Virus record (IMG/VR): IMGVR_UViG_2690316142_000005 | Length of the DNA: 9,267 nucleotides | Reading direction: 5' to 3' (one strand) | Source: a virus | Taxonomy: Duplodnaviria; Heunggongvirae; Uroviricota; Caudoviricetes | In this document: in pieces, positions 1 to 3,000 of the stretch | How the letters are laid out: every line of letters starts with the position of its first letter | How positions within the stretch are numbered: the stretch's first letter is position 1 | Position numbers: made by a program

Positions 1-3000
1 AAATGGTAGTGTCCGCTATTGCCAGTACACCTCATCCATCACCGAAAAAAATTGGCTTTTACACCATTGGCGATAAAAGCATAATGCAGGGTTTGATGAA
101 AAGATTTTGTTCCCCTCATCAGTTGAAAGCACTGCGGGTTAAGGAGTAACACATGACCACTATTACCAAAGAACGTATTGAATTGTTCATTAAAAACCCG
201 CTTGAAAACGGGCTTACCCGTGGTGAACAAATGGAACTGGCACGGATTGCGCTGGCATCGCTGGAAGCAGAGCCGGTTGTGTTCTGGTTTGAAAAATATC
301 AAGAAGGGGCTACGGCATGACGACTTTTACCAGAGAGCAGTTAATAGCTCACGCAGAGGAGACTATTGAAGCACAGAGACTGTGCATACCGGGCACAATC
401 GACCATGACATCATCCGCACATATAAGATGGATATTGCTGTTCTGGAAATCGCACTGGTATCGCTGGCAGCAGAGCCAGCCGGTAAATTGCATGAATACA
501 AACCAGTGGGATATCAGCGTCTGGTCGATGAGTTAACCATGCTGGTAAAGCAGTTAACCTGGCAACTGAGGAAAGCGAAGCCAGACTGCAAATTACCGGA
601 TAAGGCGATGAGTTATCTGGAGCGGAACGGACTGATAAGCGTGGAGGATATTTTACGATGACCTGGCCTGAAGCATTAACAACGGTAGGAATTGCGATGG
701 CGGTGGCGCTGGTGGTGTATTCGATTTGCCGCTGGGGATAAAAACGGTTTGCGGGAAAAGGAGAGTTAAGTAGAATTGCAGCGGGTGCTTGAGGCTATCT
801 GTCTCAGGCATGAACACCAAAAGGCAGATAGAGAAAAGCCCCAGTTAACATTACGCGTCCGGCAAGACGCTTAACATTAATCTGAGGCTCAATCTATGAA
901 CGGCAAATCTAGGTTAGCCTCTTACGTGCCGAAAGGCAAGGAGAAGCAGGCTATGAAGCAGCAAAAGGCGATGTTAATCGCCCTGATCGTCATCTGTTTA
1001 ACCGTCATAGTGACGGCACTGGTAACGAGGAAAGACCTCTGCGAGGTACGAATTCGAACCGGCCAGACGGAGGTCGCTGTCTTCACAGCTTACGAACCTG
1101 AGGAGTAAGAGACCAGGCGGGGGAGAAATCCCTCGCCACCTCTGATGGGTCAGGCATCCTCAATGCACCCACACTTAACCCGCTTCGGCGGGTTTTTGTT
1201 TTTATTTTCAACGCGTTTGAAGTTTTAGATGGTGCCGGAATAGAATCAAAAATACTTAAGTAGCGCGCAGGGAGAAGAGGGATGGACCCCGAACAGGGGA
1301 GTGCTATTTATCTGGAAGGATTCTGTTGATGAAAATCGAAGAATTACGTGAAATTTTTAGTGAAGATGGCCTCTATACTGTGCGCGTTGAGAATGGCGCT
1401 ATTGTCAGCCACTGCCTTCCAGACTACACAATTCTGATAATTCAGCCGTCTTTGCCAGCAGGCACGGGCGGCGCTCTCACGCATTTAAATCTGATTGGTA
1501 CCAGCATCCCCCATGCACTGAAGAACAGGCCGAATGGCTCATTCAGTGTTACCGCAGGCGCGGATGCGAGGTTAAAAAAGCCCTTAGCCTCGACTACCGT
1601 CACTGGATAATCTCCGTCAGGCTCCCTTACTCCGAACGGCCAACGCGTCCGTCCCGCACATTCCAGCAACGGATCTGGAGGTAATGTGCGGGTATTACTT
1701 CGACCTGTTCTGGTACCGGAACTCGGTCTGGTTATCGTTAAGCCAGGCCGTGAATCAATGTCAGCATTCCATAACGGCAGAATACTGGTGGAGCCGGAAC
1801 CAAAAAGCATGCGTAATCTGCCGTCCGGGGTCGTTCCTGCCGCTCGCCAGCCGCTGGTGGAAGACAAAACATTGCTGCCGTTTTTCAGTAACGCACGGGT
1901 GATTCGTGCTGCTGGTGGTGCTGGTGCATTGTCTGACTGGCTGTTGCGCCATATTAAATCCTGCCAGTGGCCACACGGCGATTATCATCACAGCGAAACC
2001 GTCATTCACCGTTATGGTACCGGCGCAATGGTGTTGTGCTGGCACTGCGACAACCAGCTGCGTGACCAGACATCCGAATCACTCGAGCAACTTGCTCATC
2101 AAAACCTGTCAGCATGGATGATTGACGTCATCGGTCACGCAATAAGCGGTACGCAGGAGCGTGAATTATCTCTGGCTGAATTATCCTGGTGGGCGGTCCG
2201 CAATCAGGTGGCGGACGCGCTACCGGAAGCGGTATTACGTCGTTCGCTGGGGTTGCGTGCGGAAAAAATTCGCTCTGTGTACAGTGAAAGCGACATCATA
2301 CCGGGAGAGCAGACAGCCACCAGCATACTGAAGCAGCGCACAAAAAATATTGCGTTACTGCCTCACGTCCACCAGCAACAGAACCCACCACAGGAAAAGA
2401 CGGTGGTCAGCATTGCCGTTGATCCGGAGTCACCGGCTCAGTATCTCCAGCGCCAGAAATCACAACGGGAAGAGATGCCTGTATACACGCGCTGGGTAAA
2501 AACGCAGAAATGCATGACGTGTGGCAATCAGGCAGATGATCCGCATCACATCATTGGTCATGGACTGGGAGGGATGGGAACAAAGGCTGATGATTTGTTT
2601 GTTATTCCGTTATGCCGTAAATGCCGTAACGAACTACATGCCGGAGTAAAAGATTTTGAAGAGAAACACGGCAGTCAGCTGTTGTTGCTGATTCGTTTTT
2701 TAATGCACGCGAGAAATTCGGGTGTTCTGAAGTGGAAAGCATAAATGACCGAGCGCATAGAATTTGTTTTACCTTACCCGCCGACGGTGAACACTTACTG
2801 GCGTCGTCGTGGCAGCACATATTTTGTATCAAAAGCCGGGGAGCGTTATCGCCGGGCAGTGGCGCTTATTGTTCGCCAGCAGCGGCTGAAATTAAGCCTG
2901 TCCGGAAGGTTGGCAATAAAAATTATTGCAGAACCACCGGATAAGCGCCGCCGTGACCTGGACAATATTCTGAAAGCGCCGCTGGATGCGCTGACGCATG

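What the first reader, a model, noticed from the sequence alone, without database searches (positions are those of the whole stretch)
748..1203. hok/sok-type locus with long-range 5'/3' mRNA pairing and an in-frame upstream start
The Hok toxin CDS is embedded in a ~420-nt unit with a promoter-like site near 748-776 and a terminator at 1178-1203. GGGTGCTTGAGG at 783-794 is complementary to CCTCAATGCACCC at 1158-1170, the kind of 5'/3' fold-back described for hok mRNAs. Unlike the plasmid R1 system, where mok is in a different frame, the upstream ATG here (896) is in frame with hok. A minus-strand promoter-like site (complement of 911-939) is placed to make an antisense RNA over that upstream start region.
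Basis: partly seen in the sequence, partly recalled or inferred. Interest (0 to 1): 0.45.

Follow-up and report, generated by a model that had tools for sequence, protein, structure and literature searches.

The report
Known prophage hok/mok/sok toxin-antitoxin locus

Summary
Window 783-1203 (+) is a complete hok mRNA. It holds the 5' tac element (783-794), mok (896-1108), hok (953-1108, 51 aa, Pfam Hok/Gef), the 3' fbi element (1158-1170) and a terminator (1177-1203). A Sok antisense RNA (904 to 834, minus strand) has its own promoter at 939-911.

The 5'/3' pairing is in the minimum-energy fold. It recurs in 34 of 38 homologous loci and shows compensatory changes (U-A to C-G). Folds of 3'-truncated RNA reproduce the published R1 switch (tac/ucb, mok-SD/dcb).

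The locus is 92.7% identical to mokW/hokW/sokW of phage 933W, which is annotated and was tested experimentally. It is 97.7% identical to loci that RefSeq names hokD. The in-frame mok is true but not new: mokW and K-12 mokC are annotated the same way.

Among close relatives the mok-to-hok spacing is 56, 57 or 58 nt, so all three frames occur. This fits the view that mok translation matters, not the Mok peptide.

Novelty: already known. One small extra: the target of the Sok 5' tail (about 892-910) is the most variable stretch of the mRNA.

The parts
749..776 (+). hok/mok mRNA promoter: -35 TTGCGG 749-754, 16-nt spacer, -10 TAGAAT 771-776; start at G783
   Evidence: Read. A -10 of the form TAnnnT lies at the same distance from GGG in more than 30 homologues whose upstream flanks differ. 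It falls below the threshold of the consensus scan. The transcription start is inferred from the start of the Rfam model and the R1-type 5' end GGCGCUUGAGG.
783..1203 (+). full-length hok mRNA (about 421 nt as the primary transcript)
   Evidence: MFE -169.2 kcal/mol, z = -6.6. 92.7% identical to the mokW/hokW locus of 933W.
783..794 (+). tac (translational activator) element. It pairs with fbi in the full-length RNA, with ucb after 3' trimming, and with 801-811 in a shorter fold (metastable hairpin).
836..845 (+). ucb / anti-SD box (AAGCCCCAGT). It sequesters the mok SD in the full-length fold and pairs with tac in truncated folds.
   Evidence: Partner lists. The model is as described for R1 in PMC9841398.
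884..887 (+). mok Shine-Dalgarno GAGG, 8 nt before ATG 896
   Evidence: Paired with 837-840 in the full-length fold and with the dcb in truncated folds.
891..904 (+). target of the single-stranded 5' tail of Sok; includes the mok ATG. The wider stretch 892-910 is the divergence hot-spot.
896..1108 (+). mok reading frame (70 codons), in frame with hok
   Evidence: Same architecture as the annotated mokW and mokC.
916..921 (+). dcb (AGCCTC). It pairs with the mok SD region GAGGCT 884-889 in 3'-truncated folds.
   Evidence: GCCTCTTAC is conserved in all aligned loci, and AGCCTCT recurs in the R1-type, Vibrio and Aeromonas plasmid loci.
911..939 (-). sok promoter: -35 TTGCCT 939-934, 17-nt spacer, -10 TAACCT 916-911
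   Evidence: Read. It places the start at 904, matching the mapped 5' ends of the annotated sokW and sokC. In Sp5, mutating the sokW -10 abolished protection (PMC8621323).
834..904 (-). Sok antisense RNA (about 71 nt): 14-nt unpaired 5' tail, long hairpin, UUUU
   Evidence: Fold -29.9 kcal/mol, z = -4.9. Coordinates transferred from the 933W sokW annotation through alignment A1.
938..943 (+). hok Shine-Dalgarno AAGGAG
   Evidence: AAGGAG is conserved in nearly all aligned loci.
953..1108 (+). hok toxin gene (51 aa, MKQQKAML...EPEE, plus stop)
   Evidence: Pfam PF01848 81.6 bits against a cutoff of 22. 100% identical to proteins RefSeq names HokD. 4 residues differ from HokW.
1116..1137 (+). 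3' UTR stem-loop, the likely protective 3' hairpin of the trimmed, active mRNA
   Evidence: Present in the MFE fold. The stem is kept with sequence changes in relatives. The role is inferred from R1 (PMC9841398).
1158..1170 (+). fbi (fold-back inhibition) element, pairs with 783-794
1177..1203 (+). intrinsic terminator (stem 1177-1194, T-run)
   Evidence: Conserved in the hokD-type loci but absent from 933W.

Best explanation
Window 749-1203 is an intact type I toxin-antitoxin module of the hok/mok/sok family, of the hokD/hokW subtype. It sits in the late-regulatory region of a lambdoid E. coli-type prophage.

Proposed mechanism; steps marked (inferred) rest on R1 and hokW work, not on this copy.
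1. A roughly 420-nt mRNA starts at G783 and ends at the terminator.
2. Its 5' end (tac, 783-794) pairs with the 3' fbi box (1158-1170). The ucb box (836-845) covers the mok Shine-Dalgarno. The full-length RNA is therefore stable, untranslatable and blind to Sok (shown in silico).
3. Slow 3' trimming removes fbi (inferred).
4. tac then pairs with ucb, the mok SD region pairs with the dcb (916-921), and the RNA becomes open to ribosomes and to Sok (refolding shown in silico).
5. Ribosomes starting at mok ATG 896 read through the hok initiation region and so allow Hok to be made from ATG 953 (inferred).
6. Hok is a 51-aa inner-membrane toxin (family shown by Pfam; activity inferred).
7. Sok is an unstable RNA of about 71 nt made from the minus strand (904 to 834). 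Its 5' tail is complementary to 891-904, across the mok start codon. The duplex blocks mok, and therefore hok, and is cleaved by RNase III (inferred).
8. When Sok is no longer made, Hok is produced (inferred).

The in-frame position of mok is an incidental state, not a distinct mechanism.
For: - Family signatures: Pfam HOK_GEF 81.6 bits; Rfam RF01794 112.4 bits over 783-958.
- Homology: 92.7% DNA identity to the annotated mokW/hokW/sokW of 933W; 97.7% to loci RefSeq names hokD.
- Experiments on the relative: HokW is toxic. sokW counteracts HokW toxicity, partly dependent on RNase III and Hfq. Mutating the sokW promoter removes that protection (PMC8621323).
- End pairing: in the MFE fold. Base-pair probability is about 1.0 in 34 of 38 homologous mRNAs. 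91% of cells are paired against 33-54% when the partners are slid. Pair 786-1167 is U-A in 27 sequences and C-G in 9. Plasmid loci of R1 type, Vibrio and Aeromonas have an equivalent 5'/3' duplex, made of partly (Aeromonas, R1-type) or largely (Vibrio) different sequences.
- Switch: truncated folds give tac/ucb and SD/dcb, and one gives the metastable 5' hairpin. These match the R1 model summarised in PMC9841398.
- Sok: a 14-nt tail, hairpin and U-run, z = -4.9.
- Frame: the mok ATG is conserved, but mok-to-hok spacing is 57 nt (78 unique prophage variants), 56 nt (8; a 19-aa Mok ending in an ATGA overlap with the hok start) or 58 nt (4; a 68-aa Mok in the +1 frame, as in R1), with identical or nearly identical (94% or more) Hok. 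This agrees with the R1 result that mok must be translated only as far as the hok start region.
Against: - Nothing about this copy has been measured: no transcripts, no ends, no toxicity.
- Both promoters are weak matches to consensus and fail the scan.
- Duplex energy alone is only p about 0.009 against shuffles.
- Independent compensatory events in the tac/fbi helix are few, because tac is almost invariant.
- The upper part of the mok-start hairpin (891-915) is less well paired here than in the Rfam consensus (mismatch marks).
- Many chromosomal hok loci are decayed (L010, L052, L059, K-12 hokC), so an undetected inactivating change cannot be excluded.
- NCBIfam Hok models score below their cutoffs, 48.5 against 73 bits.
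Confidence: 0.9

Rival explanations
1. The locus is a silent relic: recognisable hok/sok sequence that no longer works, as is described for most K-12 chromosomal hok loci.
For: Decayed or rearranged relatives are common in the sampled genomes. L010 has a mutated tac. L052 and L059 have frameshifted hok. L011, L016 and L048 have the leader replaced. K-12 hokC has lost its fbi next to IS186. The mok-start hairpin is imperfect in this copy.
Against: Every element is present and in register: -10, tac, ucb, mok SD and ATG, dcb, sok promoter and terminator hairpin, hok SD and ORF, 3' hairpin, fbi and terminator. Hok is 100% identical to the common HokD protein. The exact mok-start allele of this window recurs in 13 viral contigs, which does not look like a private decay product.
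Confidence: 0.15
2. The real product is the 70-aa protein started at ATG 896, a longer Hok isoform. On this reading mok is simply the true toxin start, not a coupling frame.
For: ATG 896 has a GAGG Shine-Dalgarno 8 nt upstream, and the ORF is open to the hok stop. Ribosomes starting at 896 must make the 70-aa fusion in this frame state. 78 of 90 unique prophage variants keep the 57-nt spacing.
Against: The hok ATG 953 and its AAGGAG are conserved in nearly all aligned loci. Relatives with identical or nearly identical Hok put the upstream ATG in the +1 or +2 frame, so the extension is not conserved as protein. Codons 2-5 of the extension are the most variable part of the mRNA. HokW expressed alone as 51 aa is toxic.
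Confidence: 0.1
3. The 5'/3' complementarity is a chance match in a GC-rich 3' UTR and has no regulatory role.
For: About 1% of shuffled 3' UTRs pair equally well with the 5' 14-mer. Two unrelated tiles of the window reach -20.3 to -20.6 kcal/mol against -21.5 observed.
Against: The pairing lies at the same relative position in 34 of 38 loci from Escherichia, Kluyvera, Pseudocitrobacter, Photorhabdus and Pantoea, with U-A to C-G and G-C to A-U or G-U changes. It is also found in distant plasmid loci, with partly or largely different sequences. It is lost in copies that are decayed in other ways (L010, L052).
Confidence: 0.02

Closest known systems
mokW/hokW/sokW of Stx2 phage 933W and Sakai prophage Sp5
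   Same: 92.7% DNA identity over window 700-1180. Same promoter, tac, ucb, mok ATG, 57-nt in-frame mok, sok promoter, hok ORF length and fbi. Both lie in lambdoid prophages.
   Different: Hok differs at 4 C-terminal residues (FTAYEPEE here, FVDYESEK in HokW). Seven bases differ within 899-908, just after the mok ATG, which is the Sok 5' tail and the stretch just upstream of its start. 933W lacks this window's terminator, because similarity ends at about 1176. Position in the prophage also differs: here the locus is upstream of the DUF968-RusA-Q genes, while in 933W it is near the right end of the genome.
hokD (relF) as named by RefSeq/PGAP in E. coli prophages
   Same: Up to 97.7% DNA identity over all 561 bases queried. 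Hok protein is 100% identical. Same terminator.
   Different: None of substance for the intact copies. The K-12 Qin-prophage hokD is, from my own knowledge, a truncated copy that lacks the leader. Loci with that kind of replaced leader were seen here (L011, L016, L048).
hokC (gef)/mokC/sokC of E. coli K-12
   Same: 82% Hok identity. Same 57-nt in-frame mok, annotated as a 69-aa MokC sharing the hokC stop. The sokC 5' end is at the equivalent position.
   Different: hokC lacks the 18-nt hairpin insert at about 852-871 and has a different 3' flank. In K-12 its fbi region is replaced by other sequence next to IS186.
hok/mok/sok (parB) of plasmid R1 and related IncF plasmids
   Same: Same set of elements and the same predicted conformational switch: tac/fbi, ucb/SD, tac/ucb, SD/dcb, Sok over the mok start. 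mRNA lengths are similar, at about 390-400 nt from the 5' end to fbi.
   Different: Only 41% Hok identity. Mok is in the +1 frame with 58-nt spacing. The 5' end is GGCGCUU rather than GGGUGCUU. It is plasmid-borne and acts in post-segregational killing.

Membership tests
hok/mok/sok type I toxin-antitoxin family | Small hydrophobic Hok/Gef-family toxin ORF of about 50 aa | tested here: met
   Pfam PF01848 81.6 bits, cutoff 22, E = 3e-23. The NCBIfam Hok models (an R1-type subfamily and HokA) score below their cutoffs, which reflects subtype rather than family.
hok/mok/sok type I toxin-antitoxin family | Conserved hok mRNA leader and Sok region (Rfam RF01794) | tested here: met
   112.4 bits against a gathering score of 59, full model 1-157, window 783-958. 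The model matches the mRNA (+) strand.
hok/mok/sok type I toxin-antitoxin family | Upstream mok frame with its own SD, overlapping the hok start | tested here: met
   ATG 896 with GAGG 884-887, and an ORF running through the hok start. The ATG is conserved in most aligned loci.
hok/mok/sok type I toxin-antitoxin family | Long-range 5'/3' (tac/fbi) pairing of the full-length mRNA | tested here: met
   MFE fold and probability about 1.0. 91% paired against 33-54% when slid. U-A to C-G covariation in 9 sequences.
hok/mok/sok type I toxin-antitoxin family | Refolding after 3' trimming: tac/ucb stem and mok-SD/dcb stem | tested here: met
   In silico only. Folds truncated at 1157, 1145 and 1110 pair 783-790 with 836-842. 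These folds and the 1130 fold pair 884-889 with 916-921. Actual processing cannot be tested here.
hok/mok/sok type I toxin-antitoxin family | Cis-antisense Sok RNA with its own promoter, complementary to the mok translation-initiation region | tested here: inconclusive
   A promoter-like site at 939-911 and a 71-nt RNA with tail, hairpin and U-run, at the position of the annotated sokW and sokC. The promoter fails the consensus scan. Expression cannot be tested here.
hok/mok/sok type I toxin-antitoxin family | Hok kills or arrests cells and Sok neutralises it | not testable with these tools
   Shown for the 92.7%-identical hokW/sokW (PMC8621323) and for R1 (PMC9841398), not for this copy.

The most novel reading that the evidence does not exclude
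The 12-20 nt around and just after the mok start codon (about 892-910) are under diversifying selection. This stretch is the target of the single-stranded 5' tail of Sok and also encodes that tail on the other strand. Diversification would give each prophage-borne hok/sok copy a private antitoxin specificity, so that the many copies in one genome (median 2, up to 11 places) do not cross-protect. It would be tolerated because the Mok peptide itself is irrelevant, which also explains why mok drifts among all three frames.
Probability: 0.45. Interest if true: 0.3.

Novelty: already known. Interest (0 to 1): 0.1.

Why it matters
It matters little as a discovery. The module, its end-pairing switch and its in-frame mok are in GenBank and RefSeq annotation (933W, K-12) and in the literature. 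The result is useful for annotation: this window carries a complete, probably active hok/mok/sok cassette whose mok and sok features are often left unannotated. The comparative data add two small points. The mok frame is free to vary, and the Sok-tail target is the divergence hot-spot. Both bear on how many hok/sok copies can coexist in one E. coli genome without cross-talk.

Tried and rejected
A two-sequence alignment worked.
- The sigma-70 consensus scan found neither the hok nor the sok promoter. I rejected this as evidence of absence, because each has one 3-of-6 hexamer, below the scan's threshold.
- The duplex-energy shuffle test gave only p about 0.009, so I did not use energy as the main argument for the 5'/3' pairing.
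- The MAFFT alignment A4 puts the outer half of the tac/fbi helix one column out of register for Photorhabdus (no bulge there) and misaligns L034. The per-pair counts for columns 40-44 therefore understate pairing. Per-sequence folding was used alongside.
- My first regular expression for the 5' motif missed the R1-type and Vibrio loci. This was fixed.
- I first mis-assigned the ucb to 916-929. The R1 description and the partner lists show that the ucb is 836-845 and that 916-921 is the dcb.
- NCBIfam gave only sub-threshold hits.
- A covariance model of the whole mRNA was not built, because it would exceed the 400-column and calibration-time limits.

Full report
**Observation**

Reading the window confirms every coordinate in the finding.
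- GGGTGCTTGAGG lies at 783-794 and CCTCAATGCACCC at 1158-1170. They can form 12 base pairs with T1164 bulged.
- An ATG at 896 opens a 70-codon ORF ending at 1108. The hok ATG at 953 lies 57 nt downstream in the same frame.
- A hairpin at 1177-1194 followed by a T-run is the only terminator-like site in 600-1400.
- TAGAAT lies at 771-776, so its last base is 7 nt before G783.
- On the minus strand, TTGCCT (939-934), a 17-nt spacer and TAACCT (916-911) precede position 904.

The consensus promoter scan reports neither promoter, because each has one hexamer with only 3 of 6 matches.

**Identity**

- The 70-aa ORF carries a Pfam Hok/Gef domain: 81.6 bits against a cutoff of 22.
- Rfam RF01794 ('sok') matches 783-958 over its full length at 112 bits. 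The match is on the plus strand, so this model describes the hok mRNA leader rather than the antisense RNA itself.
- Megablast finds the 561-bp region in 83 phage records and in 4,942 of 5,426 complete E. coli genomes. Identity reaches 97.7% over the whole query, and RefSeq names the gene there hokD.
- Phage 933W is 92.7% identical over window 700-1180. Its GenBank record annotates mokW (70 aa), hokW (51 aa, same stop codon) and a sokW antisense RNA. Through alignment A1, sokW maps to window 834-904 on the minus strand.
- For the Sp5 (Sakai) copy of hokW-sokW, Takada et al. 2021 showed that HokW arrests growth. sokW RNA made from its own promoter relieves the arrest, and mutating the sokW -10 abolishes that relief. 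RNase III and Hfq contribute, and the system aids phage release after mitomycin C (PMC8621323).
- The neighbours are a DUF968 protein, RusA, antiterminator Q, DNA methylases and tRNAs. The whole window is 95.4% identical to E. coli prophage regions.

**The 5'/3' pairing**

- The MFE structure of 783-1203 pairs 783-794 with 1158-1170. The whole RNA folds far better than shuffles, z = -6.6.
- Duplex energy alone is not compelling. About 1% of shuffled 3' UTRs do as well, and two unrelated tiles of the window come within about 1 kcal/mol.
- The comparative evidence is stronger. I collected 54 genomic loci encoding close Hok relatives from Escherichia, Shigella, Kluyvera, Pseudocitrobacter, Photorhabdus, Pantoea and Erwinia.
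- In 34 of 38 alignable mRNAs, the first six bases pair with the last six with probability about 1.0. Three of the four exceptions are copies decayed in other ways or a copy with a mutated fbi (L010, L052, and L042 with one C·A mismatch); the fourth, L034, is a misalignment.
- On alignment A4 the helix has 91% of cells paired, against 33-54% when the 3' partners are slid by 1-3 columns. Pair 786-1167 is U-A in 27 sequences and C-G in 9.
- Photorhabdus also changes G794-C1158 to A-U, and the hokC group uses G-U.
- More distant plasmid loci have an equivalent terminal duplex at the same place, built from partly or largely different sequences. These are R1-type (GGCGCUUGAGG / CUGAAGCGCC), Vibrio (GGGUGCUCUUGG / CCAACGAGCACCC) and Aeromonas.

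This is the tac/fbi stem described for R1 (PMC9841398).

**The conformational switch**

Folding 3'-truncated versions reproduces the published R1 scheme.
- In the full-length RNA, the mok SD region 880-889 pairs with 837-845 (ucb, the anti-SD).
- Once fbi is removed, in the folds truncated at 1157, 1145 and 1110, 783-790 pairs with 836-842 (tac/ucb). In all four folds shorter than 1170, 884-889 pairs with 916-921 (SD/dcb).
- The 783-1130 fold shows 785-795 paired with 801-811, the metastable 5' hairpin.

These are thermodynamic predictions. The processing itself is inferred from R1.

**Sok**

The RNA from 904 to 834 folds into a 14-nt unpaired 5' tail complementary to 891-904 (across the mok ATG), a long hairpin and UUUU. 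Its energy is -29.9 kcal/mol, z = -4.9. The start agrees with the annotated sokW and with K-12 sokC, whose 5' end is complementary to the ninth nucleotide of mokC.

**The in-frame mok**

In an IncF plasmid locus, Mok (70 aa) starts 58 nt before hok and reads in the +1 frame.
- The in-frame state is not new. mokW/hokW in 933W and mokC/hokC in K-12 RefSeq are each annotated as pairs sharing one stop codon.
- It is also not a fixed property of the subfamily. Among the genomic loci the spacing is 57 nt in most. It is 58 nt in Kluyvera and in some Escherichia copies whose Hok is 94-96% identical to this one.
- Among 90 unique prophage variants with a measurable spacing, from 120 viral contigs, spacing is:
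  - 57 nt in 78, giving a 70-aa fusion frame;
  - 58 nt in 4, giving a 68-aa Mok in the +1 frame;
  - 56 nt in 8, giving a 19-aa Mok whose TGA overlaps the hok ATG.
- All three frames therefore occur with identical or nearly identical (94% or more) Hok. This fits the R1 result that mok must be translated only as far as the hok initiation region, and that the Mok peptide is irrelevant.

**Extra observation**

Among eight intact hokD/hokW-type loci, the most divergent 12-nt stretch of the mRNA is 892-903: mean pairwise difference 0.43, against 0.067 overall. Among 93 unique viral-contig versions it is 899-910: 0.36 against 0.078. That set was selected by exact matches to the flanks 877-888 and 917-925, so those flanks are invariant by construction.

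The 120 contigs hold 21 alleles of this segment, and this window's allele occurs in 13 of them. The segment encodes the Sok 5' tail on one strand and its target on the other. One reading is selection for private Sok specificity among co-resident copies. I have not tested this against a neutral expectation.

**Verdict**

The locus is an ordinary, apparently intact member of a thoroughly studied family, with near-identical annotated copies in thousands of genomes. Novelty: already known. Interest: low.

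Noticed in passing
window 892-910: The stretch around and just after the mok ATG is the divergence hot-spot of the whole hok mRNA among close relatives (0.36-0.43 mean pairwise difference against 0.07-0.08 overall). It is the target of the Sok 5' tail and encodes that tail on the other strand. 120 viral contigs hold 21 alleles, and this window's allele is in 13 of them. It may reflect selection for private antitoxin specificity.
   Followed up: partly
window 896-953; loci L018-L020, L024, L026, L034, L036, L038, L039; viral contigs L062-L181: The mok ATG to hok ATG spacing is 56, 57 or 58 nt in loci with identical or nearly identical (94% or more) Hok. 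Mok is therefore a 19-aa peptide ending in an ATGA overlap with hok, a 70-aa in-frame fusion, or a 68-aa +1-frame protein as in R1.
   Followed up: yes
window 1176-1203 versus L001 (933W) about 1975-2010: Similarity to 933W stops right after the fbi box. 933W lacks the GC-rich terminator hairpin that follows fbi here and in other hokD-type loci, so the hokW primary transcript must end differently.
   Followed up: no
window 783-958: The Rfam family called 'sok antitoxin' (RF01794) matches the plus strand, that is the hok/mok mRNA leader. The Sok RNA itself is on the minus strand (904 to 834), so strand calls from this family can mislead annotation.
   Followed up: partly
window 4409-6767 and 6768-9126: Two consecutive copies about 2.36 kb apart (repeat spacings 2,356-2,359) of a unit holding a 352-aa N6/N4 DNA methylase gene, tRNA genes and the sRNA STnc100. 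The first copy has tRNA-Met(cat) and tRNA-Arg(tct). The second has an additional tRNA-Arg(tcg).
   Followed up: partly
loci L010, L052, L059, L011/L016/L048, L002/L025: Decayed or rearranged hok loci are frequent. Examples are a mutated tac (L010), frameshifted hok (L052, L059), a leader replaced upstream of the hok SD (L011, L016, L048) and an fbi region replaced next to IS186 in K-12 hokC. In L010 and L052 the predicted 5'/3' pairing is lost.
   Followed up: partly
loci L017, L027, L033; phage hit H3: E. coli-type hokD sequences (96-100% identical Hok; 96.6% DNA identity for H3) sit on contigs labelled Veillonella parvula MAG, Acinetobacter idrijaensis and Xanthomonas pisi, and in an 'Actinobacillus phage' record. 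Contamination or mis-binning of E. coli prophage DNA seems likely.
   Followed up: no
window 317-661 and 1326-1610: The ORFs flanking the hok locus (114 aa and 94 aa) have no Pfam match. The upstream flank is shared with 933W, where overlapping ORFs are annotated only as hypothetical proteins.
   Followed up: no
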